In this document: positions 1 to 37,865 of the stretch, one piece after another
How positions within the stretch are numbered: the first letter of the stretch is position 1
Layout of the letters: each line of letters starts with the position of its first letter
Source: Rhynchopus sp. YZ270_cl-10
Taxonomy: Eukaryota
Assembly (NCBI GenBank): GCA_964035575.1
Contig: OZ037839.1
Location: forward strand, 1,798,001-1,862,000
Length of the DNA: 64,000 nucleotides
Direction: 5' to 3'
Translations under genes and position numbers: made by a program
The notes under the pieces: model-generated
The model's input: the letters and a program-made list of their open reading frames with translations, nothing else
Databases searched by the model: none
Told to the model about the DNA's origin: nothing

Positions 1-1965
1 GACGTACCAATATGTTAATAAACTTCGTGCCTTGGGTGAGACAGACATTTCCGAAGCGAGGTTGGCGACTGGGCGTACGGGATTAGTATCTTTTTTTCGA
101 GAGAACCCAAGAGCGGCCAGGTCCTGGACAAGTACGTTGTGCTTTTAGACCTACAAACTGTCTGGGGTGGTGGGACCTCGGGGCGAAGGGTGCTTCCCGG
201 GACCCCAATATCCTACCACAAGGAGCTCGAGTCGTGCATGGAATGCAGGGTACTCTGAGCCGATTACTTCCACAAAACTCCCAGATCCCAAGACCTCCAC
301 GGGGGGCAGGCCTCCACGGAAACCCGCGACCGCCGACACCTTAGCTCCGTACTGCCTCTGTCTGTAACCTGCCGGTCCCCCACCTACCTACGCTTTTTGT
401 GGTGTCTTTTTACGACGGTGGACCAAGGGGCTTTGCAGTGCAGTCAACGCCGACGGAGCGAGACTCGATTGTGACCGGGTGAAAAGGGAACCTTAGCCAG
501 CGCTAACCAGCGGCAGTTTTGACTCAGGGAGGAGTTTCTCACCGCAGACTGGCGACACACCCCCACTTTTTCGGGGTGGCTGCATTCCTCTTCGGAACGG
601 GGTGTTCCATCCTATTTTTAAAAACGTTTATCCGAAGCGAGGTTGGCGACTGTGAAGGATCCTGAGGTGGCTTCTCTGCTTCTTCAGGCGGAGGTTGCGA
701 CTGTTATTCCGTTCGACTTCTTGCGCGAAGCATCGTTTACGAGACTTGATCTCTCTGCTGTGTCTGGTGTGACGCGAATTGAGTACAACTTCCTCCAAGG
801 GTGTACGTCGGTGGAAACAGTTGACTTGTCGGGATTGTGCAACGTTACGCACATTGGGGACAAGTTTCTCCATCGGTGCCCATCGTTGAGAAGCCTTGAC
901 GTGTCAGGGTTCACTGCTGTGACGGTGATAGGGAACTCGTTCCTAGGAGGAAGTGGCGTCACAGAGCTTGACTTATCCGCGATGACGAGTGTGACGACGG
1001 TTGGTGGGCTCTTCCTCCAGAACTGCAGGTCGTTGGAAAGTCTTGACATCTCAGGATGGCGCAGAGTCACGCACATTGCGAACGACTTTCTCACGGACTG
1101 CACCTCGTTGGCAAGCATTGATTTGTCAGCTTTTTGCAGTGTCACGAAGATCGGCTCCGAATTTCTCCGCAACTGCACGTCGTTGACCACCATCAGCTTT
1201 TCAGGGATGACCAATGTGACGGACATTGGTAACAACTTTTGTAAGGACTGCACCTCGTTGGAAACCATTGACTTGACAGCATTGCACAGGGTTGTGAAGG
1301 TGGGGTACGGCTTTCTTACGAGGTGCACCTCGCTGGGAAGTATCGACCTTTCAGCTTTTGGGAGTGCGACAGACGTTGGGAACAGCTTTCTTTTTGACTG
1401 CTCATCATTGAAAACAGTTGATTTATCAGTGTTGCGCAGCATCACACGCATTGACGTATACTGGATGCAAGGGTGCTCCGCGTTGACAACAGCAGACTTA
1501 TCAGGACTGAGCAATGTTAAGAACATTAATGCACAGTTCCTGCAAGGGTGCACATCCTTGACCACGCTGGACATGTCAAGTATAGGCTGTGACACGATGA
1601 TCCAGCACTACTTCCTGCGCAACTGCAACGCACTCACAACAGTCGTCTTGCCAGGCAACATCGACATTGACGAGATGTCTCTCCCGAATGAAGCCCAAGA
1701 GAACAATGGCTATGGCGTCACGAAGACCTTCGATGCATGTGTGCGTGACATTTACGCAAGTTTTACGGAACAGTTCGGAGGTGTGCGGACAGAAGATCTG
1801 GTACGAACAGACGTGTCTGGAGATGCAAGACAATGTATTTCATTGAAAGCAGGACAAGAAGGAGAAGGTTTGATGCAAGCACAAGAGGACGAGGACAAGC
1901 AGGAACTGGACAAACAGGAGCATGACAAGCAAGGGCATTTGGAGTGCCGGAGACACGCAGAGTGA
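1..1965 (+). pseudogene. UBL-LRR family copy 1; 5' end outside window; interrupted by insertion at 72-631
   Basis: Bases 1-71 match the linker (YQYVNKLRALGETDISEARLAT); the frame resumes after 631 and runs through the LRRs to ...LECRRHAE stop at 1965. Confidence 0.85.
72..631 (+). mobile_element. Site-specific retro-type insertion (SINE-like or 5'-truncated non-LTR element)
   Basis: Flanked by direct repeat ccgaagcgaggttggcgactg (51-71, 632-652), single in intact copies; last ~55 nt nearly identical to 35668-35725. Confidence 0.8.
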
Positions 1966-3393: not shown

Positions 3394-4986
3394 ATGGAAC
3401 TGTGTGTGCAGGGATATGATGATGACACCAAATACGTGATTGAGGTGGGTGAGAACGACACAACGGAGACGATGCGGCAGAAGGTGGCGTCTGCAACAGG
3501 GTTGTGCGAAGACAGCTTCCACATGGGCTTCGGAGGGAAGGAGGAAGGAGAGGACATCACAGAACTGAGTGCTGGAGACACAGTCGTGTTGACGAAAACT
3601 ACTAAGTACGCATCTGTTGAAGCACTTCGTGCCTTGGGTGAGACAGACATTTCCGAAGCGAGGTTGGCGACTGTGAAGGATCCTGAGGTGGCTTCTCTGC
3701 TTCTTCAGGCGGAGGTTGCGACTGTTATTCCGAACCGGTTCTTGTCGGAAGCATCGTTTACGAGACTTGATCTCTCTGCTGTGTCTGGGGTGACGCGAAT
3801 TGAGCGTGGATTCCTCTACGGGTGTGCGTCGGTGGAAACCGTTGACTTGTCGGGATTGTGCAACGTTACACACATCAAGGGACTCTTTCTCTCTAGCTGC
3901 ACATCTTTGACAAGCCTCGACGTGTCAGGGTTCACTGGTGTGACGGTGATAGGGAACTCGTTCCTCAAAGAAAGTGGCGTCACAGAGCTTGACTTATCCG
4001 AGATGACGAGTGTGACGACGGTTGGTGACTACTTTCTCCACCGCTGCGAGTCGCTGAAAAGTCTTGACATCTCAGGATGGCGCAGAGTCACGCACATTCA
4101 GGAAGACTTCCTGTCGAGCTGCACCTCGTTGGCAACCATTGATTTGTCAGCTTTTTGCAGTGTCACAAAGATCGACTGCTGCTTTCTCACCTACTGCGAG
4201 TCGTTGACCACCATCAGCTTTTCAGGGATGACCAATGTGACGGAAATTGCGTATGACTTTTGTAGGGGTTGCAAATCGTTGGAAACGATTGACTTGACAG
4301 CACTGCACAGGGTTGTGAAGGTGGGGTACGGCTTTCTTACGAGGTGCACCTCGCTGGGAAGTATCGACCTTTCAGCTTTTGGGAGTGCGACAGATGTTGG
4401 GTTCTACTTTCTTAGTAGCTGTTCATCATTGAAAACAGTTGATTTATCAGTGTTGCGCAGCATCACACACATTGAGCAAAACTGGATGCAAGGGTGCTCC
4501 GCGTTGACAACAGCAGACTTCTCAGGACTGAGCAATGTTAAGAACATTAGTGCACAGTTCCTGCAAGGGTGCACATCCTTGACCACGCTGGACATGTCAA
4601 GTATAGGCTGTGACACGATGATCCAGCACAACTTCCTGGACAACTGCAACGCACTCACAACAGTCGTCTTGCCAGGCAACATCGACATTCACGAGATGTC
4701 TCTCCCGAATGAAGCCCAAGAGAACCATGGCACTGGACTCACGAAGACCTTCGATGCATGTGTGCGTGACATTTACGCAAGGTTTACGGAACAGTTCGGA
4801 GGTGTGCGGACAGAAGATCTGGTACAAACAGACGTGTCTGGAGATGCAAGACAATGTATTGCATTGAGAGCAGGACAAGAAGGAGAAGGTTTGATGCAAG
4901 CACAAGAGGATGAGGACAAGCAGGAACTGGACAAACAGGAGCATGACAAGCAAGGGCATTTGGAGTGCCGGAGACACGCAGAGTGA
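3394..4986 (+). CDS. UBL + BspA-like LRR protein, copy 2 (530 aa)
   Basis: ATG in acaATG context; MELCVQGYDDDTKYVIEVGENDTTETMRQKVASATG...ELSAGDTVVL beta-grasp pattern; 26-aa repeats LxxIDLSxxxxVTxIGxxFLxxCTS. Confidence 0.9.
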   Translation: MELCVQGYDDDTKYVIEVGENDTTETMRQKVASATGLCEDSFHMGFGGKEEGEDITELSAGDTVVLTKTTKYASVEALRALGETDISEARLATVKDPEVASLLLQAEVATVIPNRFLSEASFTRLDLSAVSGVTRIERGFLYGCASVETVDLSGLCNVTHIKGLFLSSCTSLTSLDVSGFTGVTVIGNSFLKESGVTELDLSEMTSVTTVGDYFLHRCESLKSLDISGWRRVTHIQEDFLSSCTSLATIDLSAFCSVTKIDCCFLTYCESLTTISFSGMTNVTEIAYDFCRGCKSLETIDLTALHRVVKVGYGFLTRCTSLGSIDLSAFGSATDVGFYFLSSCSSLKTVDLSVLRSITHIEQNWMQGCSALTTADFSGLSNVKNISAQFLQGCTSLTTLDMSSIGCDTMIQHNFLDNCNALTTVVLPGNIDIHEMSLPNEAQENHGTGLTKTFDACVRDIYARFTEQFGGVRTEDLVQTDVSGDARQCIALRAGQEGEGLMQAQEDEDKQELDKQEHDKQGHLECRRHAE

Positions 4987-10972: not shown

Positions 10973-11663
10973 ATTGACTGTTTCAAGGTAACCAAACACC
11001 AGATACTTCAGTTTATCTGAACGTTTCTTTCTATGAAGCTATATACTGGGAGCCCCTTTCACACTGCAACTTATTCCCCAACCGGACGCTGCATCACACA
11101 GGACTCATGACCCTTTGTCTCCAATGATAGTCGTTCTGCCCGTGACTGCACAGAGCTGACACACTCGTTGAGTGCCTCACAAAACCTCAAATTATTTCCT
11201 TCTTGGTGGTGGAGACTACGCAAATATGGACTGTACAAAGCTCTCTGATAAGAAAGCCAATCAACCCTGTTTGCAGGATTAAGCAAGTTAATATTATTAA
11301 TCCATAGGAACGCATGGCCTGGGTAGCCACCGTTCTGAAGCTACATTCTGAAAACAAATTACTTTTATGACATCGATTTTACAAATGTACACGACAACTG
11401 ATTTGTGCGTGTGTGATTTTAAACGCAGTGGAATGTTTTTTACTTTCAAGTTTTGTGTGGATGGCAAGTGCGCGAACCGTGGGCGAGCTGAGCCATGATT
11501 TATAGGGACCCTGCTACGAAATAATAGTGGCCATTTATGGGTATAAATAGGTGTGTGTTCTAGTTTGATCCGTTGTAAGAACACTTCGAAGCCCCGCCCT
11601 GTGCATGTGCTCGACTACTGTCCGCGTTTTTAGCACCTTTCATTTTCATTTGCTTTTATTTTA

Positions 11664-11890
11664 TTTTGTACGAGTATGCAATACGTCTGGAAATGAAAGA
11701 CGCGCTCGTCGGTTGTCATGAGTTTTACCGTTTCCCCCTTCCCCCCTTGTGCTCCACCTCTCCACCGTACTTAAGGACGCAGGTTTCTTCGGGGGTTTTC
11801 GGGACTTATGGGGTTTCAAAAAAAAAGGATGGATGCGATCAACAAACAACAAACAACGAATATATAAAGAAGTGGGGCTATTTCTATTTT
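11664..11890 (+). mobile_element. Solo A-B terminal repeat of the YR retrotransposon
   Basis: ttttgtacgagtatgcaatacgtctggaaatgaaagacgcgctcgtc...ggatggatgcgatcaacaaacaacaaacaacgaa closely matches the reverse complement of repeats A and B, fused with no coding region. Confidence 0.85.
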
Positions 11891-13995: not shown

Positions 13996-14605
13996 GGAAC
14001 GGCCAGCAGAGGAAGTCAGTGGTTGAAGCCCGTCCCAAACGCAGTGCGACCCACAGGAGGATTCCCGCAAGTGGTGGACACGCAGAGTGACCCCGCCAGC
14101 TGCGCACTGCGACCTCTAAACTGCACGAGAGAGGCTTAGGTTGATCCCATATGCATAATATTACATTTCAAGTGCAATACGCGTTCTTCGGATGTCACGG
14201 GTCTTACTGTTTCCCCTTCCCCCCTTTTGTGTCTCAGCACCTTACTTTTTCAATATGCGGGTTTTCGGGTCTTTTGGGGGTTTCAAAAATAAAGAGAAAG
14301 GATGAATACGATGAACAAAGAGCAGGACGACAGCAAAATAGAGAACGGGGGTGTGTTTCATTTTGTTTACACTCTCAACACTTACACGACGGCAGAATAG
14401 ACGCGGGTGTATTTCACCCTTTCAAGGTGACCTAGCACGAGAGGCTTACGATCATCTTATGAACCTTTCTTTCCATGAAGTTGTATACTGGGAGCCCCTT
14501 TCACACGTGTTCTGCGCAAGAATTTCCCTCACAAGCCATCCCCACTCCACACCTACAACACGCCATCACAGACACCCTGCGACCCACCTTGCATATTGTC
14601 TAACA

Positions 14606-15160
14606 ATGCAGGTTTCGATACACGCAAAGACTCTGGACGTGACTGCGGTGGTGGACGTTGGTCCTGAGGAGACCATAGGCGGGCTGACTGCGATGGCGGT
14701 GAAGGCGTTGCAGTGCGAAGAGGCGTGCTACCTTTGCTTTGGCGGGGTTGCGCTGCACGACCGTACGGTGTGTGTACGCGACGTGGGGGCGGAGGCTGGG
14801 GATGTGTTTGCTCTGCACTTTTGCGTCGAGCTTCCGGAGTGCAGGATTGCAGGGAGGTATGAGTGCAGAGACTATGACTCTGGGGGGAAGAACGACTGGC
14901 ACTACGTCACCATCAGCGACCTTGATGGGCCCACAGCAGACCACAAGGCGCGTGCCCTCTGGCGCAACCGTGCACAGGTCCAATGGGAGCTGACCGCAAC
15001 CGAAAACCCAGACGTCTACGACGTGTCACAGCACTGCCCGTATCACAGCTCAGGGCACACAACGCTTGCAGTGACGCGCTGTCCAAGCAGTGGTGCTGTG
15101 CAGCACATCGCTGGCCCCTGGGGTGAGCTGTACAAAAGGCAGGACGAGTTTTCGGAGTGA
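14606..15160 (+). CDS. Small protein: N-terminal UBL plus unknown beta-rich C-terminal domain (184 aa)
   Basis: MQVSIHAKTLDVTAVVDVGPEETIGGL...LCFGGVALHDRT...GAEAGDVFAL ubiquitin-like pattern; GC-rich coding bias; duplicated at 22962. Confidence 0.8.
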   Translation: MQVSIHAKTLDVTAVVDVGPEETIGGLTAMAVKALQCEEACYLCFGGVALHDRTVCVRDVGAEAGDVFALHFCVELPECRIAGRYECRDYDSGGKNDWHYVTISDLDGPTADHKARALWRNRAQVQWELTATENPDVYDVSQHCPYHSSGHTTLAVTRCPSSGAVQHIAGPWGELYKRQDEFSE

Positions 15161-17774: not shown

Positions 17775-18280
17775 CATGTACGACAGTTTGTGTGGAGAGA
17801 GGCTTAGGTTGATCTCATAAACATTTCAAGTGCAATACGCGTTTTCGGATGTCACGAGTCTTACTGTTTCCCCTTCCCCCCTTTTGTGTCTCAGCACCTT
17901 ACTTTTTCAATATGCGGGTTTTGGAGGGTTTTTCGGGTTTTCAGGTCTTTTGGGGGGTTCAAAAATAAAGAGAAAGGATGGATACGGAGAACAAAGAGCA
18001 GGACGACAGCAAAATACAGAACGGACCGAACTTATTCCCCAATCGGAGGCTCCATCACACATGACTCATGACACTTTGTCTCCAATGATCGTATTATGGA
18101 TTTTGGGATTTCAACTAAGGATTGCCCTTGGCGAAGGACTTCAGTACAGACTCAAAGTCCCCGTATCTTGGTGTGGGTACGAGGACCTTGGATACTAACG
18201 TCATTTCTTCAAACACATTTTGTCCCCCCTCATCTCCCTCACCCCCCGAAGACGAATCAAAATAAATCAAAAAAGACACA

Positions 18281-20018
18281 ATGTTGAAGCTGATGTGCGC
18301 CACCTTCGTGGCAGCCGCCTCCGCGCAGGTCACTCCTGCTCTTCTCAAGACCCATCCGCACCTTGCCGCTTATAAGAACGTCGATTTCAATGCCAAGCGT
18401 TACACCCTGCGTGCGACACACCCGGAGCAGATTCATATTGCGTATGCTGGGCAGTCTGCAGAGGGTTACCCCACAGGGATCAACGCAGCGTGGGTGTACA
18501 AGGAGAAGGATGGGTGTGTGCTTGAATACGGAACGGACAGTGCGATGCACAATGAATCGGTTACTCCGCACTCTGGACGGTACCTCGACGAAGGGTCGTA
18601 CCACTGGAATGTTGATGTGCTTGATCTGGTGCCGGCTACGCTCTACCATTACCGCGTCAAATGCGGTTCTGCTGCCTCAGCAAACTTCACCTTCACCTCC
18701 GCAGCGAACGGAAAGGATCTGGGTCGTCCCTTCAACATCAACCTCTTCGGGGATATGGGGTATCTGGGAAGCGCAGAGAGGCCGATGATCCTCGATGTCG
18801 GCGGTCTGAAGAAACATTGGTCTGCCGTTCCCACCCGCGAAACGCAGCAAAGGTTTTTTGAAGCAGGAGAAACCGATATGATGTGGATCGTAGGCGACAT
18901 TGGCTACGCTGACGATGCGTTTGCACACGATGTGGTAGGAGGACTGTACGAGAAATGCTACGACGGATTCATGAACTGGTTTCAGAACATCACTGCAAGC
19001 ATCCCTTTTCACGTTTCCCCTGGAAACCACGAATCCGAATGCCACTCTGCGGAGTGCGTGATCGACCGCTTCCTTGGCGAGTACCTCGGAAACTTCTCTG
19101 CATACACTAACAGATTCCATATGCCCAGCCCCTCTTCGGGTGGAGTCGCAAACATGTGGTACTCCTGGAACACTGGTCCCGTTCATTTCGTCTCGTTGAA
19201 CACCGAAACCGATTTTGAAGGTGCCGGAGAGGGGCACTCAGGCTGGTATTGTACAGGGTTCTATGTTTTGCATGCAAATGCTAAAAGAGGAAATTGAACA
19301 CCGTACCTCAACTCCATTCTATTTTGGAGCAGATTGGAGCAGAGCCACATATCACCGAGAGGTCGAGGTGCGCTTCACCATTTTTTTTTTTGTCTTTCTT
19401 GCCGTTCTCATTTTAGGGGTGGGTAAAACACAATAAACGGAGTTCGCGGTGTTTCAATTTTCCTCCTAAGCCTTGGCACACATTTATCTTGAAATTTCTC
19501 TAATCCTTAATGTTCTTCGCATGCACCCAGAACTCATCAATAACTCTGTTGTCTCCGATGGAGGAGACGAGCCTCCACTGCATTGCAGTTTCGTTAGCGA
19601 TGGTCAGCCACCCGGTCGACATTTCCGAGGTCGCAAAGATGCCTACGGATGAGTTCGCTGTCGGGCCTGTTGTGATGTAGTCAGTTTCGTCGTTGCCAGC
19701 CCCACCACAGAAGACGTAGGAGGTTGGATAGGTGACGTTTGTCTGCGCATGGCAGACGGGGGGCTCGCATGCTTCGACGGAGCGTGCGTAGGTGTGTGCG
19801 TGCCCTGCGACGAAGATGTCTACCTCGTATTTGTCGAACAAGCTCTGCAGAATGGCGGGCTGGCAGCACGGCCTATGCCCGCCCACCACGATGAAGTTCC
19901 GCAGCCCCGCCCTCTTGTCTGCAAGCGCCTTTTCCAAATCAGCCTCAAGCCACGCAAGGTACTCCCCCTGCCTCCCAAAGCTGCCTGCAGCGTAGGCGTC
20001 ACCGTCGCCTCTCTTCTC
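18281..20018 (+). pseudogene. Purple acid phosphatase copy broken by an internal inversion (19232-20018)
   Basis: 5' part matches 37866-38816; the 3' coding half with the GH and GHxH motifs is on the minus strand at 19500-20018. Confidence 0.9.
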
Positions 20019-22458: not shown

Positions 22459-22961
22459 CATGTACGACAGTTTGTGTGGAGAGAGGCTTAGGTTGATCTC
22501 ATAAACATTTCAAGTGCAATACGCGTTTTCGGATGTCACGAGTCTTACTGTTTCCCCTTCCCCCCTTTTATGTCTCAGCACCTTACTTTTTCAATATGCG
22601 GGTTTTAGGCTTTTTCGGGTTTTTCGGGTCTTTTGGGGGTTTCAAAAACAAAGAGAAAGGATACGATGAACAAAGAGCAGGACGACAGCAAAATAGAGAA
22701 CGGGGATGTGTTTCATTTTGTTTCCACTCTCAACACTTACACGACGGCAGAATAGACGGGGGTGTATTTCACTGTTTCAAGGTAACCAAGCACGAGAGGC
22801 TTAGGATCATCTTATGAACCTTTTCTTTCCATGCAGCTGTATACTGGGAGCCCCTTTCACACGTGTTCTGCGCAAGAATTTCCCTCACAAGCCATCCCCA
22901 CTCCACACCTACAACACGCCATCACAGACACCCTGCGACCCACCTTGCATATTGTCTAAAA

Positions 22962-23516
22962 ATGCAGGTTTCGATACACGCAAAGACTCTGGACGTGACT
23001 GTGGTGGTGGACGTTGGTCCTGAGGAGACCATAGGCGGGCTGACTGCGATGGCGGTGAAGGCGTTGCAGTGCGAAGAGGCGTGCTACCTTTGCTTTGGCG
23101 GGGTTGCGCTGCACGACCGTACGGTGTGTGTACGCGACGTGGGGGCGGAGGCTGGGGATGTGTTTGCTCTGCACTTTTGCGTCGAGCTTCCGGAGTGCAG
23201 GATTGCAGGGAGGTATGAGTGCAGAGACTATGACTCTGGGGGGAAGAACGACTGGCACTACGTCACCATCAGCGACCTTGATGGGCCCACAGCAGACCAC
23301 AAGGCGCGTGCCCTCTGGCGCAACCGTGCACAGGTCCAATGGGAGCTGACCGCAACCGAAAACCCAGACGTCTACGACGTGTCACAGCACTGCCCGTATC
23401 ACAGCTCAGGGCACACAACGCTTGCAGTGACGCGCTGTCCAAGCAGTGGTGCTGTGCAGCACATCGCTGGCCCCTGGGGTGAGCTGTACAAAAGGCAGGA
23501 CGAGTTTTCGGAGTGA
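22962..23516 (+). CDS. Second copy of the small UBL protein (184 aa)
   Basis: Differs from 14606-15160 by one residue (VTAVV vs VTVVV). Confidence 0.8.
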   Translation: MQVSIHAKTLDVTVVVDVGPEETIGGLTAMAVKALQCEEACYLCFGGVALHDRTVCVRDVGAEAGDVFALHFCVELPECRIAGRYECRDYDSGGKNDWHYVTISDLDGPTADHKARALWRNRAQVQWELTATENPDVYDVSQHCPYHSSGHTTLAVTRCPSSGAVQHIAGPWGELYKRQDEFSE

Positions 23517-24381
23517 AAATAATGTCGTTTTTGAGGATTTCGGTCTGTACCCTAGCCCCTCTCAGGATGGCGTTGGGTGCAAATACTGTGTTTTTACTAA
23601 ACCCCCCCCCGGGTCCCCCCCCCCGTATAATATTTACATAAATTTATGTAAATAATACGCGTGTTGTAAATAATAGGCGTCTTTGTAAATAATAGGCGTG
23701 TGTTAATAAGAGGCGTATATCGTAGTTTCCTGAGGGTTACTCCGCTCCACTACAGACAATAAGAAAACAAAGGAAGTATCTGTAAAGCCTATATGTGCCT
23801 CGTTCACACACATTTTTACAAACAAAGGGTACACAAAATAATTTACAATTTTTCATCGTTCACCTACATGCTTGACATTCAATCCCCATACTTTCCATAA
23901 CGCACACCACCAGAAAGCTATTTATATTTTAAAAAATGTCATCAATCGCAATCCCGGACCCTGCCCTTTCGACCATGGAGTACTACGTGGAGTACGATTC
24001 GGAGGCAGAGTCACTTGTTAGTGACGGGGAGGAGGGGGACGCCCAAAAGCTTCGAAACCCACATATTTCCACTGCCGGACCTCACCGGAGGGGACGTGGG
24101 GTGGTTTTCGGCACCTTAGAAGAAAAACTGTGCTCCCGGATCCATTTTTTTGAAAGCGTTACATTCCTAGAGGAAATCTTACTAAAATCTTACTATTTTC
24201 GAAGCCGTTTTTTCGAAAATAAACGCTCAGTTTTGGTTGTTTGGTGTTTCATTAGGCAGAATCGACGAATTTTAGGCCACTTTGGGACCATGTAGACCCA
24301 CCTTGGCGGGTTTTATGACTTTTTTTCAAAAAAATCTTGAAAAAACACGAGCGTTACAGAGGGTCCTTAAGGATTTCCTTA

Positions 24382-24684
24382 CTGGGGGGGGGGCGAATAA
24401 GAGATCAGGGGTGAATAAGAGATCAGGGCCGAATAAGAGATCAGGTTGAGATTTTGGGGGTATTTTTTTTTTTTTTTTTTGCATGCGCCAGGGTTTTATC
24501 TTGAAATTTTTTTTTGAAATTTTACCCTGTCTACCCGGTCTGGCAAAAAAGTGGTCAAAATATTTTTTTTGCCTCCGGCGAAAATGTCTTTTTGCTTTTT
24601 TTCCCCCAAAAATTTTTTTTTATTTCTGGCTCGTCCGTTCGCCTAATAAGAGATGCCACATCTCTTATTCGCCCCCCCCCCCAG
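24382..24684. mobile_element. ~300 bp MITE, copy 1
   Basis: ta|ctggggggggggcgaataagagat ... atctcttattcgccccccccccag|ta; near-identical copy at 29106-29406. Confidence 0.85.
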
Positions 24685-25078
24685 TAAGGGCTGTGCCCCC
24701 TACCCCCCCCCAAAATGAAATACCCCCCTTCTTTATTTATTCGTTGTTTGTTGTTTGTTGATCGCATCCATCCTCGTCCGTACTTCAGGAAAAGCACACA
24801 GCACTTTTGGTGGTATTGAAATGCCCTGTGAAACCGTCCGCACTTTTTTTTTTTTTTTTTTTCAAACCCCAAAAGTCCCGAAAACCCCGAAAAACCCGCG
24901 TCCTGAAGTACGGTGGAGAGGTGGAGCACAAGGGGGGAAGGGGAAAACGGTAAAACTCATGACAATCGACGAGCGCGTCTTTCATTTCCAGACGTATTGC
25001 ATACTCGTACAAAATGAAATACCCCCCTTCTTTATTTATTCGTTGTTTGTTGTTTGTTGATCGCATCCATCAGGACCC

Positions 25079-28000
25079 TTAATAGGGACGCGCAGCGCTC
25101 TCGAAGAGAGAAGTGATCGCCTGTAGCTGCTCATTTGTCTTCGCTTTGTCTCCTCTGGTGAATCGGTCCGCTCTCTGCTGTTTTGTCCCCACGTGAGCGC
25201 ACCTCAGGGTCATCCCGTTCTGCTTTGCCGCCGCAAACATCTCCGACAGAATGGCGTTCGCCGCAAAGTTGCTGCTGTGTCCCCGCTCAATGCAGAAGAC
25301 GGCAGACAAGTTGTCGACCTTCATGTGTACAGTGCATGCGCTGGTGTATTTTGCCGCCAATAGCACAGACTTAGCTGCCGCATACAGCTCCTTCAAGAAG
25401 ATTGAGGTTTCCTCGTGACCTGCGCCGAACGTTCCCTGCGCAACCTTCTCGTCTTCGTCGTCTTCCAGGATTGCTGCCCACTCTGCTTTTGAAGCGTCTG
25501 ACCACACTGTGATTGCTTTGGTGGGGGGTTGTAGGATCCAGCTGTTTGTCGTCATCAATGATATCCGCTTTCGCACTTCAAAAATCACACTGGGAGGTAC
25601 TTCGACATGTATGTCCCACAAAAGAACGTTCTGTAGTGTCTTCGAAGCCAGGTTTTGCACGAAGGTGATGGCTGCTGGTAAAGTGCACAGTGGTGTGTGT
25701 GTTGTGTACGAATGCCACACTATGCATCCAAAAACTACGTAGAACTGGCGTGGTGTCAGCTTCCCGGTGCGCAGCGCGGCCAGTTCATCCTTCTGCACAA
25801 ACTTTTCGAGCCATGCCGGTTCGGATCGAAATGTGTGTTTCTCCAAGTTAAATTCCACTCCGAATACGCAGAACTGTTGTGTAGGGGTACCGTACGTCGG
25901 ATCGTCCATGTTGAGCTCGACGTTTGCTTTGTCGCATCGTTCGCAGAATGACGAAAATTGTGCCACCGCTTCCTCTCGGGATTGTTGTATGACGATGAAG
26001 TTGTCTATCCAGCAGATACCAAACTCTTCGGGCAGTAGTACACGCGAGCAGCGTTGTGCAATCGCTGGAGCGAACGACCAACCCATCGCCAAGCAATTTA
26101 ACACTGTCCTAGTGAACTGTCCCCGTTCTCCTGCGGTGTTGACACCAAAAAACGGTCGGATGCTTTGGTCTACTTCGATTTGGTAGAACCAACTTCTAGC
26201 GTCGGACAGAACGACCCAATTGCTGTTCACTATTCTGTGGATAACAGCCGTGATGTGCGGCAGTCTCATCTGCGGTGGCGGACCCATCGACCTGTTCAGC
26301 TTTCTGCCATCCACCACGAATCGTAAACCCCCCGACTTTTTCTCCACAGTGAAGGCATGCAGAATCACTTCTTGGGGTGCAGAAGTTCGCGACAGGACGC
26401 CGAAATCGATGAGGGTATCCAGATGTTGAGCCATGTGACGCGAGGTACCTCTCCTTATCCCTGCTTGCTTGTCCCAACCCTCCTTCAGGTGTGATACGAA
26501 CGTTTCTCTCTTGCGGATGATCTGCAGAATGTCTTCCAGCTCGTTCTCCTTGTCGAGGCTCTCCAGTGTGTCTAAGCAGATGCGTCCTCTCGATATCGCA
26601 GCAATGTAGTCCTGGTCGGTTCCTCCTGCACGCGCCTCGGCGGGAGGACGAATGTTCGTGGCGCTGCTTCGTACACATAGCGAGTTGTCGTACAGGCTCA
26701 GAAGCCCCGCATCCTCAGACGGTGATTGTGAGTCCTCCAATATGGTTTGTATGAAAGTTTGTTCTGAATCTGCAGGTAAATCGTCGGATGGTCCTTCTTT
26801 GTTGTAGACGGGTATAGGGTCGTGGTCGTAACTTCTTGGGTATTTTGGTATTTTTAAAGCCTGCGGGATAGGTGCTTCATGCACGAATTTCAGTCGTTTA
26901 GGTGCAGGGGCTTCGATAGCAGAGTCGTCTGCTCGACCCGTTGCAGACCTCCTTTCGGCAAGTAGCGGATGAGACCTTCCACCGTGTCGTGTCGCGTGAT
27001 CATCTGGATCTGTTCCAACGGTACCCTCTTGTTGTTGAGATGGTGCGCCGCTCCTCGCCTTAGGGAGTGAGGGGTGAGGTTCTGATTTACTCTTTTCAAC
27101 GATTTGCCTATTGTCCTGTAAGAGAGGTCTTTGAATAGTCGGTCGGAGCCCTTCGATTTTTTCATCTGACCCTTTAAAGCTTTCAACATCGACGGAGCCA
27201 TATCCATTCCTGTGTGTTTCCCGAGGCGGAAAGGGTCTGACTTCGTGTCGACCCAGTGGACCCCAATCTGTGTAGTATGGTCGTTCATCGAAATTTCTTC
27301 TGCTTTGAGGCCCAACACGTCTGAGCATCGTGCTGCCCCTTGCCACATCATCGTCAACGCCAGCTTCAGCGATGGGTTTTTGGCTAAAGATATAGCCTTG
27401 CGTATCTCCTCTGTTGTCGCCGGAGGTGCTTGGGTCGTCGGCTTCAGCGCTCCCAATCTCCTCAGTGCCCGTTGGTAGTCGGCCAACAGTTGCGAACCTT
27501 CGGTTTTCGTATTCGTCATTCGTTTCAGCGCTGCCGACGCTACGATTGAGGTTTGTAACGCTGCTGATGGAAGCATGTTTTCCATTGTTCGCTTCTTCTC
27601 TAACCACAGAATGATCGCCTCGTCGTACCCTAACTCTGTCTTCATGTGTTGCTCCCAATTTGTTTTGAACTCGTTCAGACGGCGCCACACGCTTCGCAGC
27701 TCCCCCATGTACGACCCCGATAACGCCTGTGACAGAGTGTGCTGCGCCTTCGCCATGACCAGTCGAGCTTGTTCTGCGGTGAGTGGCATTTCCTTCTGTC
27801 GTGGACGTCCGAGGTGCGAAGGAGGTCTTTCTACCAGCAAAGCGCTCAGGCTGAGGTTCTGCAGGGGCGGCGCGGCCCCTGAATTGTCTCCTCGTTTGTT
27901 GGCTGATGGCTTCACTTTTGTCTCCTTTATTGTCGGCAAACAGTCGCGAATTGTCTCCTCGTTTGTCGTATTTAGAATTGTCTCCTCTTTTGTTGTGTTC

Positions 28001-28762: not shown

Positions 28763-29105
28763 AAAAAAAAAAATCCAAAAAAAAAAAATAATGTAAATAA
28801 TACGCGTGTGTTACTGGGGGGGGGGCTAATACAAGAGGTATGCCTAATACAAGAGGTACTTTGAAATCGGGATTTTCACGATTTTTTACCGGCTAATACA
28901 AGAGGTACTTTATTCTTTCCTTTATTTGACTTGATCACTTTTTTTCAAAAAAATAAATCGATGGTGTCAAATGAAAGGTTTGCCAAAAATCTTTCAATTG
29001 CGGCCAGGTACGATCAAAAAGTTGAAAATTTTCCCGTGTTACTGGTTGGCGAGAGTAAAAATCCCAGGGCGTTCGCCCCGGGGCGAAAAATATTTTTTTT
29101 CGTTA

Positions 29106-29406
29106 CTGGGGGGGGGCGAATAAGAGATCAGGGGTGAATAAGAGATCAGGGCCGAATAAGAGATCAGGTTGAGATTTTGGGGGTATTTTTTTTTTTTTTT
29201 TTTTGCATGCAACAGGGTTTTATCTTGAAAAAACATTTTGAAATTTTACCCTGTCTACCCGGTCTGGCAAAAAAGTGGTCAAAAAAATATTTTTGCCTCC
29301 GGCGAAAATGTCTTTTTGCTTTTTTCCCCCCAAAAAAAATTTTTTATTTTTGGCTCGTCCGTTCGCCTAATAAGAGATGCCACATCTCTTATTCGCCCCC
29401 CCCCAG
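29106..29406. mobile_element. ~300 bp MITE, copy 2
   Basis: Same TIRs and body as 24382-24684. Confidence 0.85.
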
Positions 29407-31028: not shown

Positions 31029-31036
31029 CCCAAAAC

Positions 31037-31279: not shown

Positions 31280-33244
31280 GCGGAAATTGACCAAAAACGA
31301 GAACTTGTCCATTTCGGCGAATTGACCCCACCACTGGCCGGGCGGATTCCGGAAATGCAAATGCCGTCGTTTAAACTGGTAGAAACACGGGTAATCGGTT
31401 ATGCACCACACCAAAAACCAAAAAAAAATCACAAAAAATCACGAAAATTCACCAAAATTCACAACGAGGCGGAAACACGCGTGATACGCGGGTGTGTGGG
31501 TTTTTGTGAATATTTGTGAATATTTGTGAATATTTGTGAATTTTTGTGAATCGCTAGTGAATAATCTGGAAAAAAAAGTCCCCAGATCACCCCAGAAAAA
31601 GGAAAAAAAAAAAAAAATCACTGTTATTTCGGGGTTTCTTAGTGGCCGAAACCTCGCGAAAACACCACCATTGACATTTTTGGGCCAATCCCAGCCAGTG
31701 GTGGGGTCAATGTGGAAAAATGAACAATTTTTTGGTGACTTAAATTTTCACAAATCTGAACCATCAGGCACCAATCGTGTAAAAACTGACACACGCGTTT
31801 TAGGTCAAAAATGCACGTTTCTCAGCTCAAAGTGAGCCCATCACAGCACGCACAGAATCCGGACCACCGAAATCAAAAAAAAAATTTTTCGATTTTTTGT
31901 GCAAAAATTGGTGGAAATTTTTTTTAGTAAGAAAAATGTACACAAAAACCGTATACTTTATTTCACAGATTTCCACGCTCAAAATGGGTTTCCGCGCCGA
32001 AAACTTTATTACCCCCGTATACTTTAATAGCCCCCCCCCAGTAATAGAAGAGGTACCTCTTGTATTAGCCCCCCCCCAGTAATAATACACGTGAAAGTGG
32101 CCTTTTTGTAAATAATATGCGTATGTAAATATTATACGGGGGGGGGGGTTTATAAACAAACACTTTCCGTCCACAGTAACCATGCACCAGGCAATAGGCA
32201 GGGTGCATTCATGAAGGAGTCTTGTGTTAGTCGTACTGTTCTGGGTGTGATACATGTTTTAACACCAGTGCCTGCGTGGGCCGATGAACGGTGAGGCCTG
32301 GTTGTACCTTGAACGTCTGATGAAGTACGATTTCAAACTGACTGAGTAAATATAGAACCACAAACCGTGTGTATTTTTCTCTGTGTCTTGTTTTCCTTGT
32401 CCAGTATTTTCTTTCCCTCCCACCATTGTTGTGACATTGTGTTTGTGCCCAACCCCGGCCCCCTTTTGTTTTCGCAACCTACCCTACAATGGCCCTGGCT
32501 CCTTCTGATGAGTGCGGTCAGATACTCAAAATCGTTAAAGCAATCTGTTTCTCCTTCATCTTTTGCAAACAGCAACGCAAACATGCCCCCTTTTTTTGAG
32601 TAGAGTACTGGACACTCTGCTTTGGGTGTTTTTGTTTTGTGTGTTCTGTGTTGTTTTGCAGTGCCTGCGTCCGATGAACGGTGAGGCGTTTGCACTTTTG
32701 AACGTCTCTTTTGCACTCTGTTCAGCACTCTCTCTTCGATGCATGAATACAACATCAGTGTGTACTTTGTGTTCCCACTTAGAGTTCTCGTGATCCATGG
32801 GTTCGACAGTGCACTTTAGGTTCCTTCGGAGGCAGCGAAGTGTGCTTGTGTGTGGAGAAGCCAACTTTGCCCCCTTTCAAGCATGGTTAGGTTCGTCTTC
32901 AAATTATTTGCCATTTCTCTCTTTTCACAACCGTCAAGTGAAACTAAAAAGAAAGCTATTTTGTTGTATCTTGCCTCCCTCCTCCTCCTTCTCAACACCA
33001 CCCCAAAACAGAGCAGCACTTCACTCGAAACAATGGAACTGTGTGTGCAGGGATATGATGATGACACCAAATTCGTGATTGAGGTAGGTGAGAAGGACAC
33101 AACGGAGACGATGCGGCAGAAGGTGGCGTCTGCAACAGGGTTGTGCGAAGACAGCTTCCGCATGGGCTTCGGAGGGAAGGAGGAAGGAGAGGACATCACA
33201 GAACTGAGTGCTGGAGACACAGTCGTGTTGACGAAAACTACTAA

Positions 33245-34984
33245 CACGTTGTGCGAGAACGGATGTTCTTCATTCGACTCTCCCGTACGAAGACGACTGC
33301 GAAGGTCAATGGCAAAGGCAGAGCTAACCTGAAGGGTATTGAAGCGGGGGTGGATAAGGAGAAAACCCTTGCTCTCACCCGAAGCAAAACTTTGACGGAT
33401 TACGAGGCGGGGACGCTGCGACACATTGTAGCTGACGGTGCGATAACGGGGGTGCGACTTGCGAGAGCGCGCATACGGGACTCGGCCATCTGCGTTCACT
33501 GCGAAGCGGGGGTGGACGAAAATCACAAACACTTGTGGTGGGAATGTGAAGCATGGAGTAGCATTCGTGCGGAGTACCCCTTGCTGTTGGACATTGACAG
33601 AACGACCTGGCCAAACTGTCTCGCTATCTGCGGCATGTGCACACCGGACACACCTTTGGAATGCGCCCGTGTTGCAGACCTGCAGAAGATGATGGTGCGC
33701 ATCCTCATCGCACGCTCCAAGTGGAGCAGACCGGAAGCGGCGAACCCGCGACTGCAAGAAGACCGATACCCGTGGACGTGGGCACCGGAGTTGGACACGA
33801 CGACGCAACACGCGAACAGTTTGGTGGACTACACCCCCCTGAAAAGGAGGTGGCCGTATGGACGTGCTCTGCTGCTGGCGTTTGCCTCCTGGCTGGGTGG
33901 TTTACAATGGAGCGACGAAGCTGGACGTGAAGTCTCCCACATGGAGCTGCTCATCGACTTCGAGGTTGCCACAGGGATGGACATCCGACCTGGGGACAAG
34001 ACCGGCAGAATAGCGCCGAAGCTGAAGCAGCCGAGGGCCGGGACTGGGGAAGAAGACAACAATGGGGGGGAAGACGACGGGAGTGGGGAAGACGACGATG
34101 ATGACGACGTGGTGCCAGTAGCGCTGGCCCACAGAGAAATGGCGAAGACGACCACCTTTGGGCATATGTTGGCTTCACTCAGAACCTTTTCGGAGAGCTC
34201 TCTCCATCCGGGGAAGGTGAAGGTAACGCATGTTCTCGCTTCGTTTGGGGCGAACGCCATCACAGGCATCGACCGCCGTCCTATCTTTGCCGGCGGAGAA
34301 GAAACGTTGAAGGCATTGCGTGCGCTATACGATGCTGGTGTGGCGTATCGTCTGCAACGCAGCTCCGAAGGCATGTCTGAGGTGGAGCTCCGTGGTGGCG
34401 ATAGAGCGAGAGGTACATGGATGGGGGAGTATTCTGCTGAGACGGCGTACCCCTCCACAGAAGTTAGGGGCAGGAGGGCACTACCATTCATCCAGCGGGC
34501 TGAACAGGAGACATCTGCGCATGCTCGCTACCGGCACCATGAGCACGTGCGTCCAGGGGATGCACCCGTGAAGGCACCTGAAGGAGCGGTTCCGATCTTC
34601 CAGTTTGCGATATGTGTGCTGCACCGGAAGACGAAGTGTGATGCCTGCTCGAAGAACGCCCAGGCAGACCTGATGCATTGCTGCTTTGCGCACCACTCCA
34701 ACGACGACGGGTTACCGATCCGACACGAAGCATGCACTAAGCATAGACTCTCGAGGTGCGGGAACTGTGTGCAAGAGAAGAGTACGCTGGAGCACTGCTG
34801 CCGCCGCCACCACGACACCTCGAAGGGGCGACAGACGACGCTGGGAGGCTTCTTCAAGAAGAAGCAGACGAAGCAGAAGGATGGGCACAGCAGGGGCGGT
34901 GATGGACTTATGTAACATCACCTCCACGATGTATTGTATCACCTATCTCGGATAGGGGTGCATGCATCGAAAACGGGCCCCCAC
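33245..34984 (+). mobile_element. 5'-truncated non-LTR retrotransposon with 18 bp TSD
   Basis: gttgacgaaaactactaa at 33227-33244 and 34985-35002; ORF open from the 5' junction; 69 nt 3' UTR with a hairpin; no poly(A). Confidence 0.85.
33251..34915 (+). CDS. C-terminal portion of a non-LTR ORF2-like protein (zf-RVT-like knuckle, two Cys/His repeats, PIP-box-like motif)
   Basis: CVHCEAGVDENHKHLWWECEAW; CVLH..CDAC..HCCFAHH and CTKH..CGNC..HCCRRHH; QTTLGGFF. No ATG start and no RT core (truncated). Confidence 0.7.
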   Translation: MRERMFFIRLSRTKTTAKVNGKGRANLKGIEAGVDKEKTLALTRSKTLTDYEAGTLRHIVADGAITGVRLARARIRDSAICVHCEAGVDENHKHLWWECEAWSSIRAEYPLLLDIDRTTWPNCLAICGMCTPDTPLECARVADLQKMMVRILIARSKWSRPEAANPRLQEDRYPWTWAPELDTTTQHANSLVDYTPLKRRWPYGRALLLAFASWLGGLQWSDEAGREVSHMELLIDFEVATGMDIRPGDKTGRIAPKLKQPRAGTGEEDNNGGEDDGSGEDDDDDDVVPVALAHREMAKTTTFGHMLASLRTFSESSLHPGKVKVTHVLASFGANAITGIDRRPIFAGGEETLKALRALYDAGVAYRLQRSSEGMSEVELRGGDRARGTWMGEYSAETAYPSTEVRGRRALPFIQRAEQETSAHARYRHHEHVRPGDAPVKAPEGAVPIFQFAICVLHRKTKCDACSKNAQADLMHCCFAHHSNDDGLPIRHEACTKHRLSRCGNCVQEKSTLEHCCRRHHDTSKGRQTTLGGFFKKKQTKQKDGHSRGGDGLM

Positions 34985-35068
34985 GTTGACGAAAACTACT
35001 AAGTACGTATCTGTTGAAGCACTTCGTGCCTTGGGTGAGACAGACATTTCCGAAGCGAGGTTGGCGAC

Positions 35069-35725
35069 GTGGTTGACCAGGTGAACGAGCACTGCAGACC
35101 ATACGCGGCAGTCGCCCACCTCCAGAAAGAAGCGCGGGGTGAGCTTGACAAGCTGAGAGCGACCCGAAGCATCACGTTGGTGCACATCGACAGCAGTAAC
35201 AACGTGAACGCCACAAAGCTCGCCTGCACGGCCGTTGAGAAGCTTAGTGTGGGCGAGACAACGAAAGAGGACAAGCTAGGACAGCACCCTCTGTAGATAT
35301 TTTACCTTGTTCTTCTTGTTTTTCATGCATTTCAATCTTCCTCAACGACATTCTTGTTTTTCATTGTTTTTCAGTTGACACAGCGACGCATAAGTCCATT
35401 TGGCACTGTTGTTGAACCCCAAGTTCAAACCGGACGGCTATCCCAGCGTAGATGGCAGCAGACGTGTACGCCACGCCTGAAACCGGTAATTTTAATATTC
35501 ATTGCTTTTCTTTACAAGTTGACACAAGATTCTAGATTTTAAGTTGGTTCAACGTCGCATGAGACCAGTTGGCGCAGTCGTTGAACCCTCAATTTTTCAT
35601 TTTTTTCTGGTTTTGGCCCGTGAAACCCTGTGTTACATCAACGCTGGGTTCGCGAGCCTGAAGCCAGGGGTGGCTGCATTCCTTTTCGGACCGGGGTGCT
35701 CCATCCTATTTTTAAAAACGTTTAT
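35069..35725 (+). mobile_element. 5'-truncated retroelement end with 18 bp TSD; same target site as 72-631
   Basis: cgaagcgaggttggcgac at 35051-35068 and 35726-35743; 35069-35296 encodes an RNase HI-like C-terminus; shared 3' terminus. Confidence 0.8.
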
Positions 35726-37865
35726 CGAAGCGAGGTTGGCGACTGTGAAGGATCCTGAGGTGGCTTCTCTGCTTCTTCAGGCGGAGGTTGCGACTGTTAT
35801 TCCTGGCGGGTTCTTGTGCGGAGCATCGTTTACGAGACTTGATCTCTCTGCTGTGTCTGGTGTGACGCGAATTCAGCAACGCTTCCTCTCCGGGTGTGCG
35901 TCGCTGGAAACGGTTGACTTGTCGGGATTGTGCAACGTTACGCACATTGGGAATCACTTTCTCCAGAGATGCCCATCGTTGAGAAGCCTTGACGTGTCAG
36001 GGTTCACTGGTGTGACGGTGATAGGGAACTCGTTCCTCCAAGGAAGTGGCGTCACAGATCTTGACTTATCCGCGATGACGAGCGTGACGACGGTTGGTAG
36101 GTACTTTCTTTTTAACTGCACATCGTTGCAACGTCTTGACATCTCAGGATGGCGCAGAGTCACGCACTTTGAGGACTACTTCCTCGCGTACTGCACCTCG
36201 TTGGCAAACATTGATGTATCAGCCTTTTGCAGTGTCACGAAGATCGGCTTCAATTTTCTCACCTACTGCGAGTCGTTGACCACCATCAGCTTTTCAGGGA
36301 TGACGAATGTGACGGACATTGGGAACAACTTTTGTAGGGCCTGCACCTCGTTGGAAACGATTGACTTGACAGCACTGCACAGGGTTGTGAAGGTAGGTTC
36401 CGACTTTCTGAGGAGCTGCACCTCGCTGGGAAGCATCGACCTCTCAGCTTTTGGGAGTGCGACAGACGTTGGGAACAGCTTTCTCAGCAACTGTTCATTA
36501 TTGAAAACAGTTGATTTATCAGTGTTGCGCAGCATCACGCACATTGAGCAAAACTGGATGCGAGGGTGCTCCGCGTTGACAACAGCAGACTTCTCAGGAC
36601 TGAGCAATGTTAAGAACATTAGTGCACAGTTCCTGGATGAGTGCACATCATTGACCACGCTGGACATGTCAGGTATAGGCTGTGACACAATGATCGAGCA
36701 CCACTTCCTGGACAACTGCAACGCACTCACAACAGTCGTCTTGCCAGGCAACATCGATATTCACGAGATGTCTCTCCCGAATGAATCCGAAAAGAACCAT
36801 GGCACTGGACTCACGAAGACCTTCGATGCATGTGTGCGTGACATTTACGCAAGGTTTACGGAACAGTTCGGAGGTGTGCGGACAGAAGATCTGGTACGAA
36901 CAGACGTGTCTGGAGATGCAAGACAATGTATTGCATTGAAAGCACCTTCCAAGCAAGGGCATTTGGAGGGTTAGGCATCGGCACAGGCTGCAGCGATGTT
37001 GTGTCGAGCACAGTGAGGAACGGCCAGCAGAGGAAGTCAGTGGTTGAATCCCGTCCGAAACGCAGTGCGCACCACAGGAGGATTCCCGCAAGTGGTGGAG
37101 ACACGCAGAGTGACGCCGCCAGCTGCGCACTGTTCCCTCGAAGCTGCACGACGCACACCCTCACAGGCCACTCCTCCCGCAAGCACTGCAGACAACAGAG
37201 CTGGAATCGCTGCTGCACAGCTTACTGGCAGCCCTACAATATCATGACATGTACGACAGTTTGTGTGGAGAGAGGCTTAGGTTGATCTCATAAACATTTC
37301 AAGTGCAATACGCGTTTTCGGATGTCACGAGTCTTACTGTTTCCCCTTCCCCCCTTTTGTGTCTCAGCACCTTACTTTTTCAATATGCGGGTTTTGGAGG
37401 GTTTTTCGGGGTTTCAGGTCTTTTGGGGGTTTCAAAAACAAAGAGAAAGGATGGATACGATGAACAAAGAGCAGGACGACAGCAAAATAGAGAACGGGGG
37501 TGTGTTTCATTTTGTTTCACCCTTTCAAGGTGACTAAGCACGAGAGGCTTAGGTTCATCTTATGAACCTTTCTTTCCATGAAGCTGTATGCTGGGAGCCC
37601 CTTTCACACAATGCAACTTATTCCCAATCGGACGCTCCATCACACATGACTCATGACCCTTTGTCTCCAATGATCGTATTATGGATTTTGGGATTTCAAC
37701 TAAGGATTGCCTTTGGCGAAAGACTTCAGTACAGACTCAAAGTCCCCGTATCTTGGTGTGGGTACGAGGACCTTGGATACTAACGTCATTTCTTCAAACA
37801 CATTTTGTCCCCCCTCATCTCCCTCACCCCCCGAAGACGAATCAAAATAAATCAAAAAAGACACA

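What the first reader, a model, noticed from the sequence alone, without database searches (positions are those of the whole stretch)
51..652. Two different inserts at the same site of the LRR gene family: a sequence-specific retroelement targeting a protein-coding array
Seen: 72-631 and 35069-35725 sit at the same position in two paralogues with slightly different TSDs (~21 vs 18 bp). Their bodies are unrelated except for the last ~55 nt, so they look like independent events. Known: site-specific non-LTR elements (R2, SLACS/CZAR/CRE, Utopia) mostly target multicopy RNA genes or simple repeats. Inference: here a conserved multicopy protein-coding sequence is the target.
Basis: partly seen in the sequence, partly recalled or inferred. 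Interest (0 to 1): 0.85.

Follow-up and report, generated by a model that had tools for sequence, protein, structure and literature searches.

The report
Two LINEs target one protein family
In what is likely a diplonemid (a marine flagellate), two unrelated LINE-type jumping genes and a short passenger element keep landing at two fixed spots, 66 bases apart, inside one large family of protein-coding genes, a strategy known before mainly from the RHS genes of trypanosomes.

Summary
Observation confirmed and extended. Inserts A (71/72-631) and B (35069-35725) sit at one site of a ubiquitin-like + LRR gene family, with 20-22 and 18 bp duplications, sharing only a 58-59 nt hairpin tail. B is the 3' end of a LINE encoding ubiquitin, OTU protease, APE endonuclease, RT and RNase H-like domains: APE, not RLE. 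A is a ~600 bp non-autonomous element: 36 of 37 database proteins carrying its reading frame join it at the same codon of diverged paralogues. Tandem insertion at the site is seen. Specificity is not absolute and the on-target fraction is unmeasured. Protein-coding targets have precedent: ingi/RIME in trypanosome RHS genes (PMC7563717). Verdict: real; new variant of a known kind.

The parts
51..70 (+). Target-site duplication of A, left copy (20 bp; up to 22 bp, 50-71)
72..631 (+). Element A: non-autonomous SINE-like element, lacking about 43 nt of its usual 5' end
   Evidence: the full 5' end is seen as a loose end behind the target in run X6
573..631 (+). Shared 3' tail of A: predicted hairpin plus T5-A5 end, no poly(A)
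   Evidence: z -2.58
632..651 (+). Target-site duplication of A, right copy
652..1965 (+). Rest of host gene copy 1 (BspA-type LRR part)
   Evidence: family typed on the copy at 3397-4983
3654..3671 (+). Empty A/B target in an intact paralogue; further empty sites start at 6462, 9348, 12645, 16394, 21084, 62233
33033..33244 (+). 5' part of host gene copy 7 (ubiquitin-like domain); its last 18 bp (33227-33244) are the left duplication of C
33245..34984 (+). Element C: 5'-truncated copy of a second LINE lineage (2A-like + APE + RT + zinc knuckle in full-length relatives); ORF remnant 33245-34915; own 3' hairpin
34985..35002 (+). Target-site duplication of C, right copy (18 bp)
35051..35068 (+). 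Target-site duplication of B, left copy (18 bp)
35069..35725 (+). Element B: 5'-truncated LINE; last 75 codons of ORF2 (RNase H-like end, 35069-35296) plus 3' UTR
   Evidence: 99% identical to the C-terminus of P0001
35667..35725 (+). Shared 3' tail of B
   Evidence: z -2.45
35726..35743 (+). Target-site duplication of B, right copy
35744..36974 (+). Rest of host gene copy 7 (LRR part)

Best explanation
A, B and C are retrotransposon insertions with target-site duplications at two fixed sites of a large ubiquitin-like + LRR gene family, likely placed by sequence-preferring APE endonucleases through target-primed reverse transcription. B is an autonomous LINE (ORF1 with a ubiquitin domain; ORF2 OTU-APE-RT-zinc knuckle-RNase H-like). 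Its endonuclease would nick the conserved linker between the host's ubiquitin-like and LRR domains (motif LGE.D....RL), its RT would grip the 58 nt hairpin tail of its own RNA and copy from there, often stopping early, and a second nick 18-20 bp away gives the duplication. A has no RT and a fixed 5' end; it likely borrows B's protein through the same tail, as a SINE does. C is a different LINE lineage with its own tail and its own site 66 bp upstream. The duplication rebuilds a target, so elements can stack in tandem. The family is redundant, so losing some copies is likely cheap, the same logic as rDNA or RHS targeting. Shown: the inserts, duplications, domain content, shared tail, recurrence at one codon, tandem stacking. 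Inferred: that the APE sets the site, that B mobilises A, and the benefit.
For: B's 75 codons are 99% identical to the end of P0001 (1753 aa), which has RVT_1 (E 5e-22), OTU (1e-7), Exo_endo_phos (2e-6) and zf-RVT hits; P0002 has RVT_3; P0013 adds ubiquitin. Of the 39 proteins in the 14 clusters found with A's frame, 37 carry A and 36 of these join it exactly two codons after an invariant R-L/F; the 36 have 28 distinct 20-residue host flanks at a mean 66% identity (lowest 35%) against 99% for the first 20 residues of A, so these are separate insertions, not copies of one. Of 20 B-family proteins listed, 4 show a foreign N-terminus, all 4 at this site (P0013, P0010 full-length; P0009, P0004 truncated, perhaps one event); of 22 C-family proteins listed, 2 do, both at C's site (P0036, P0067). 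DNA level: a contig in run X10 shows the tail followed by a different paralogue's version of the target (table 7, 35718); a 90 nt contig in X6 reads tail, target duplicate, then A's 5' end (record 21); P0004 reads B tail, target, truncated B. The 1-base shift of the 3' junction recurs in X3, X5 and X6 (table 4).
Against: The protein search only sees copies fused in frame to an upstream ORF, so it is biased towards genes; the share of all copies on target is not measured. Off-target copies exist: a 641 nt X10 contig holds a truncated B between matching ~15 bp repeats unlike the target (record 4); P0030 has an unrelated upstream sequence; loose ends behind the tail in X3 (6 and 3 contigs) and X5 (6 contigs) give mixed consensus (agreement 0.53-0.61) with no clear target motif (15 of 37 rows shown). 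Contig lengths recur among the A, B and C proteins, so most may come from one or a few assemblies, possibly the window's own. No biochemical evidence on the endonuclease.
Confidence: 0.8

Rival explanations
1. Loose hot spot: the endonucleases read only a short degenerate motif, most copies lie elsewhere in the genome, and the gene family merely offers many matches.
For: Off-target B copy and mixed loose ends; the tail is shared with further, unidentified bodies (loose ends before 573/574) whose targets are unknown; the protein search is biased to in-frame fusions; ingi/L1Tc show only relative site specificity (PMC5814959, passages).
Against: A loose motif should also give in-frame fusions with many unrelated genes; only 1 of 37 A-bearing proteins is not at the site, and 0 of 6 visible B or C junctions. 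Tandem stacking at the site.
Confidence: 0.15
2. The inserts act as new introns: the duplicated target contains AG|GT, so splicing from the GT in the left copy to the AG in the right copy would remove A (61-641, 581 nt) or B (35060-35734, 675 nt) exactly and restore the gene. This could hold on top of the best explanation.
For: The AG|GT geometry is in the sequence; the arginine codon that supplies it is invariant in 36 of 36 host flanks at protein level; D. papillatum introns are mostly GT-AG and often hold transposons (PMC10161547, passages).
Against: C's duplication has no AG|GT, so targeting of this family does not need it; the acceptor would be GAG with a competing AAG four bases upstream and little pyrimidine tract (sequence); one empty paralogue has CGG at that codon (12645).
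Confidence: 0.08
3. One old insertion spread by tandem gene duplication or gene conversion, so the shared position says nothing about targeting.
For: The family is a tandem array of ~91% identical copies with signs of recombination.
Against: Host flanks differ far more than the inserts (66% vs 99%); duplications match the local paralogue (X10 flank; P0004); A and B have unrelated bodies and different 5' ends and duplication lengths.
Confidence: 0.03

Closest known systems
ingi/RIME (T. brucei) and L1Tc/NARTc (T. cruzi) inserted in RHS (retrotransposon hot spot) genes
   Same: APE-type LINE plus a short non-autonomous partner inserting at one site in the 5' coding region of a multigene protein family, one or more elements per gene, making pseudogenes (PMC7563717, passages; original paper PMC118050 not held). 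Euglenozoan host. APE-RT-RNase H layout in B; 2A-like peptide before the APE in C (as L1Tc, PMC5814959; also in other APE elements, PMC3708506, listing only).
   Different: Different host family (ubiquitin-like + BspA LRR). Duplications 18-20 bp, not ~12 bp (PMC2323293, passages). No poly(A); a hairpin tail instead. A shares only the 3' tail with B, whereas RIME and NARTc are deletion derivatives that share the 5' signature. B carries ubiquitin and OTU domains. Two non-sister LINE lineages use two neighbouring sites.
TcTREZO in MASP pseudogenes of T. cruzi
   Same: Non-coding element mostly inserted into one protein-coding multigene family (PMC5814959, passage).
   Different: Here the autonomous partner and its endonuclease type are identified; no sequence comparison with TcTREZO was made.
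Tx1- and R1-clade target-specific APE retrotransposons
   Same: Sequence-specific insertion by an APE endonuclease into multicopy sequence (PMC4640811, introduction passages).
   Different: [quoted passage not shown] Clade placement against named Tx1/R1 elements was not tested.
R2, CRE/SLACS/CZAR, Utopia
   Same: Fixed site in a multicopy array, 5' truncation, tandem stacking; some NeSL/Utopia carry an N-terminal cysteine protease (Ulp1 type; PMC4640811).
   Different: They use a restriction-like endonuclease and target RNA genes; B and C use APE and no RNA gene lies in the window.
Unnamed diplonemid LINEs (D. papillatum KAJ9441246.1, KAJ9438072.1; Rhynchopus euleeides EukProt EP01061)
   Same: Nearest named relatives of B's RT region, 34-35% identical.
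   Different: None of the 149 other representatives carries the host ubiquitin-like N-terminus; their target sites are unknown.

Membership tests
APE-type non-LTR retrotransposon (LINE) | Non-LTR reverse transcriptase | tested here: met
   RVT_1 in P0001, P0035, P0036; best solved-structure hits are LINE-1 ORF2p, then R2
APE-type non-LTR retrotransposon (LINE) | APE endonuclease upstream of the RT | tested here: met
   Exo_endo_phos E 2.4e-6 in P0001; the same region aligns in C's P0073/P0080 with the N, E, D-x-N, D and H positions kept, read by eye
APE-type non-LTR retrotransposon (LINE) | Target-site duplications and variable 5' truncation | tested here: met
   18-20 bp duplications; B truncated at three different points and C at three (window)
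APE-type non-LTR retrotransposon (LINE) | Poly(A) or simple-repeat 3' end | tested here: not met
   A/B end in a hairpin plus T5-A5-CGTTTAT; C ends in a hairpin plus a G/C run
ingi/L1Tc clade | 77-79 nt 5' signature shared by autonomous and short elements | tested here: not met
   At protein level the 5' ends of full-length A and B differ; the DNA of B's 5' end could not be read, so a signature private to B is untested
ingi/L1Tc clade | APE-RT-RNase H in one ORF | tested here: inconclusive
   B has the layout but 3 of the 4 acidic RNase H positions appear substituted, by eye; C has no RNase H hit
ingi/L1Tc clade | 2A-like peptide before the APE | tested here: inconclusive
   Present in C (P0073, P0080), absent in B; not specific to ingi (PMC3708506, listing)
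ingi/L1Tc clade | Poly(A) tail and ~12 bp duplication | tested here: not met
   against PMC2323293
ingi/L1Tc clade | RT groups with ingi/L1Tc in a tree | not tested
   No named ingi or L1Tc sequence was held; the trees contain only database relatives
RLE site-specific elements (R2, CRE/SLACS/CZAR, Utopia) | C-terminal restriction-like endonuclease, no APE | tested here: not met
   APE found; no RLE family among Pfam hits
RLE site-specific elements (R2, CRE/SLACS/CZAR, Utopia) | Target is a multicopy RNA gene or simple repeat | tested here: not met
   0 Rfam matches and 0 tRNAs in the window; the target is in-frame coding sequence
Tx1 / R1 target-specific clades | RT phylogeny | not tested
   No named references held
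SINE-like non-autonomous element (A) | 3' tail shared with a partner LINE, fixed 5' end, no RT | tested here: met
   58-59 nt tail at 95%; same 5' end in 36 of 37 proteins; no Pfam RT on any A-bearing protein
SINE-like non-autonomous element (A) | Head derived from a tRNA, 5S or 7SL RNA | tested here: inconclusive
   No Rfam or ARAGORN hit, but the window copy lacks its first ~43 nt
Introner-type intron-generating element | Precise removal from the mRNA | not testable with these tools
   AG|GT geometry present for A/B, absent for C; no raw RNA reads were available to lay

The most novel reading that the evidence does not exclude
B uses the host gene as its expression cassette. Full-length B joins in frame, its ORF1 has no methionine for the first 82 residues, and its ubiquitin domain ends in an intact LRGG; so B is translated from the host's start codon as a host-ubiquitin-ORF1 fusion and cut free by its own OTU protease. 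Two non-sister LINE lineages and a SINE have converged on the same 70 bp of one protein-coding family because inserting just behind the host's start gives them transcription, trans-splicing and translation for free.
Probability: 0.2. Interest if true: 0.85.

Novelty: new variant of a known kind. Interest (0 to 1): 0.6.

Why it matters
Catalogues of target-specific non-LTR elements list RNA genes, repeats and transposons as targets (PMC4640811); trypanosome RHS genes are the main protein-coding exception. This is a second euglenozoan case with different elements and a different host family, so the strategy likely arose more than once. It offers two APE endonucleases about 30% alike that choose different sites 66 bp apart, each across dozens of naturally diverged targets: a ready-made series for the open question of how APE domains gain sequence specificity, with some bearing on retrotransposon-based targeted insertion. 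It also means gene counts for this family are inflated by disrupted copies and fused gene calls.

Tried and rejected
Whole-genome flank table: no genome is held. The tail motif found 0 matches in metagenome contigs and 0 in viral contigs. Related loci: 1 distant LINE contig (L001, 25% identity), not informative on targets; no relative of the host gene in viral contigs. Expression and splicing: no RNA holder listed; all laid runs were contigs and X10 is only guessed to be RNA, so nothing is concluded. Contig depths were not used as copy numbers. ESM Atlas returned only unnamed RT/APE clusters, no taxa. Earlier findings of the scan: nothing in 3 look-ups. Rejected readings: RNA-gene target; RLE element; Helitron or DNA transposon (no terminal inverted repeat looked for by tool, but RT, long duplications and 5' truncation argue against); assembly artefact (the junction types recur in X3, X5, X6, X10); a functional host-A fusion protein (frame shifts at A's T run in several copies). 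Literature: searches for diplonemid + non-LTR (0 papers), diplonemids + target site duplication (1, unrelated by title), OTU + ubiquitin + non-LTR (1, Helentrons), LRR family + site-specific (1, listing only, not read) and Tx1 + protein-coding (1 review, not read) found no description of this system; 7 supplementary files of PMC10161547 held none of six terms. The library lacks most subscription papers and Repbase, so this is weak evidence of novelty.

Full report
Setting. The window holds nine copies of a gene for a ubiquitin-like domain, a short linker and BspA-type leucine-rich repeats, about 91% identical in DNA. No whole genome is held. The nearest named relatives of the elements are from Diplonema papillatum and Rhynchopus euleeides at 34-35% identity, so the host is likely a diplonemid; this rests on the mobile elements, not on a host marker.

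The observation. Seven copies have the target empty; copy 1 carries A and copy 7 carries B at the same place. A's duplication is 20 bp (51-70 / 632-651; up to 22 with ambiguous end bases), B's is 18 bp. A and B share only their last 58-59 nt, at 95%. The tail folds as a 7 bp + 7 bp interrupted stem (z -2.58 and -2.45; 2 and 5 of 200 shuffles as stable), and of its three differences one turns a G-U into a G-C pair while two fall in the top of the hairpin. With inserts and one duplicate removed the host frames are open for 460 and 502 codons.

What B is. Its first 75 codons are 99% identical to the end of P0001, 1753 aa, with OTU, Exo_endo_phos (APE), RVT_1 and zf-RVT hits; the C-terminal piece P0002 hits RVT_3. 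Best solved relatives are LINE-1 ORF2p, then R2, and OTUD3 for the N-terminus. Upstream lies an ORF1 of about 500 aa with a ubiquitin domain ending in LRGG (P0006, P0010, P0013). By eye, the OTU keeps its catalytic Asp-Cys and His, and the RNase H-like domain lacks three of four acidic residues; both readings use recalled motifs.

What A is. A search with A's longest frame among longer proteins gave 14 clusters with 39 members, all of which I read. Thirty-seven carry A; 36 of these begin A at the same residues (PDGGPPP) exactly two codons after an invariant Arg-Leu/Phe of the host linker. The exception, P0030, has an unrelated upstream sequence. Of the two without A, P0059 is an intact paralogue and P0058 stops ten residues after the same site in foreign sequence. 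The 36 have 28 distinct 20-residue flanks, mean identity 66%, lowest 35%, against 99% for A's first 20 residues; among 13 representatives the last 60 host residues are 45-91% identical. Some hosts have a different architecture, with a long Cys/His-rich N-terminal part (P0031, P0032). Near-identical inserts in strongly diverged hosts are separate recent insertions. A has a fixed 5' end, about 600 bp, no RT, and B's tail: a SINE-like passenger. The window copy lacks about 43 nt of the 5' end, which appears as a loose end behind the target in run X6.

B and C junctions. Of 20 B-family proteins listed (15 of 19 and 5 of 5 cluster members), 4 show a foreign N-terminus and all 4 join at A's site; P0009 and P0004 share a junction and may be one event. 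P0004 reads B tail, target, truncated B; an X6 contig reads tail, target, A 5' end (record 21): tandem stacking. C is 99% identical to P0035 and has a 68% sister subfamily, P0036; full-length members (P0073, P0080, P0081) have a 2A-like peptide, APE and RT. Of 22 C-family proteins listed (15 of 34 and 7 of 7), 2 show a foreign N-terminus, both host genes joined at C's site. B and C are 30-33% identical. In RT trees each groups with other database sequences at full support (60 and 23 rows, chosen by score and by hand from 89 with a long RT match), and a tree holding them together is rejected (p-AU 9e-47; group named). Whether that means convergence or an older shared target depends on the unknown sites of the relatives; none of the 149 other representatives carries the host N-terminus.

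Against strict specificity. The protein search sees only in-frame fusions. At DNA level, X10 gave one tail followed by another paralogue's target and one truncated B between ~15 bp repeats unlike the target (24 of 412 loose-end rows shown). In one search (15 of 37 rows shown), loose ends behind the tail in X3 (6 and 3 contigs) and X5 (6) merge into mixed consensus lines (agreement 0.53-0.61) without a clear target motif, and loose ends before the tail show further bodies that share it. On-target flanks in a high-copy family break into short contigs and are under-counted in that table, so neither source gives the true fraction. Recurring contig lengths suggest most proteins come from one or a few assemblies.

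Mechanism. Shown: duplications, 5' truncation, domain content, shared tail, recurrence at fixed codons, tandem stacking. Inferred from established LINE biology: target-primed reverse transcription, with the APE choosing the site and the tail recruiting the RT, and A riding on B. The linker is the best-conserved part of the family near the site (90-100% invariant columns from -250 to +49 among seven window copies, falling to 64-86% beyond), which makes it a stable target. More speculative: both full-length B junctions are in frame with the host, the first methionine lies 82 residues in, and LRGG ends the ubiquitin domain, so B may be translated from the host start and freed by its own OTU. A fixed nick gives one-in-three odds of being in frame by chance, and non-AUG initiation would also do, so I give this 0.2. 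The AG|GT in the A/B duplication would allow exact splicing, but C's site lacks it; untested.

Comparison. The closest system is ingi/RIME and L1Tc/NARTc in trypanosome RHS genes: an insertion site in the 5' coding region predicted to disrupt over half the members, with one or more elements per gene (PMC7563717, passages; the 2002 original was not held). TcTREZO in MASP pseudogenes is a second precedent (PMC5814959, passages). Kojima and Jurka list only RNA genes, transposons and repeats as targets and place APE-type specificity in Tx1 and R1 (PMC4640811, passages). The D. papillatum genome paper lists LINE, SLACS and TATE ORFs and leaves rigorous typing for later (PMC10161547, passages and term search of 7 supplements). 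The elements here work like ingi/RIME in RHS but fail that clade's hallmarks that I could test (poly(A), ~12 bp duplication, shared 5' signature), and were not placed against named clades.

Verdict. Real, and richer than reported: three element families, two sites, one protein-coding family. A new variant of a known kind. Interest 0.6.

Noticed in passing
window 24374-29409 (- strand): Tyrosine-recombinase retroelement of DIRS/TATE type: RT ORF 25079-28810 and integrase ORF 26890-28611, with split direct repeats (24374-24687 / 29098-29409; 24848-25014 / 28598-28764). A short remnant of its ends lies at 11643-11890.
   Followed up: partly
window 22512-22661 and the matching 3' regions of other LRR copies: The region downstream of the LRR genes is about 71% like the ends of the TATE-type element in reverse: possibly an old element kept in 3' UTRs, as SIDER/SIRE are in trypanosomatids.
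   Followed up: no
window 18029-20018 vs 37615-39605: Purple acid phosphatase gene present twice, each directly behind an LRR gene; in the first copy the 3' ~790 bp are cleanly inverted (99% and 95% identity), breaking the gene.
   Followed up: partly
window 30700-31300: Two adjacent minisatellite runs (9-base and 5-base units).
   Followed up: no
window 573-574, loose ends in runs X3 and X5: At least two or three further element bodies end in the same 58 nt tail; their identity and targets are unknown.
   Followed up: no
window 14342-15160, 22818-23516, 47112-48275: Other genes with what looks like a ubiquitin-like N-terminus but without the targeted linker; no insert seen in them.
   Followed up: no
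proteins P0090, P0098, P0100: Other LINEs with an OTU-like N-terminus form a clade apart from B, so OTU-bearing LINEs may be common in this group or gained twice.
   Followed up: partly
window 35368-35419 and 35537-35588: B's 3' UTR holds a 52 nt internal direct repeat at 77% identity.
   Followed up: no
window 55928-57811 and 58986-61448: A membrane protein with a cyclase-like C-terminus and a glycoside-hydrolase-like ORF, judged by eye only.
   Followed up: no
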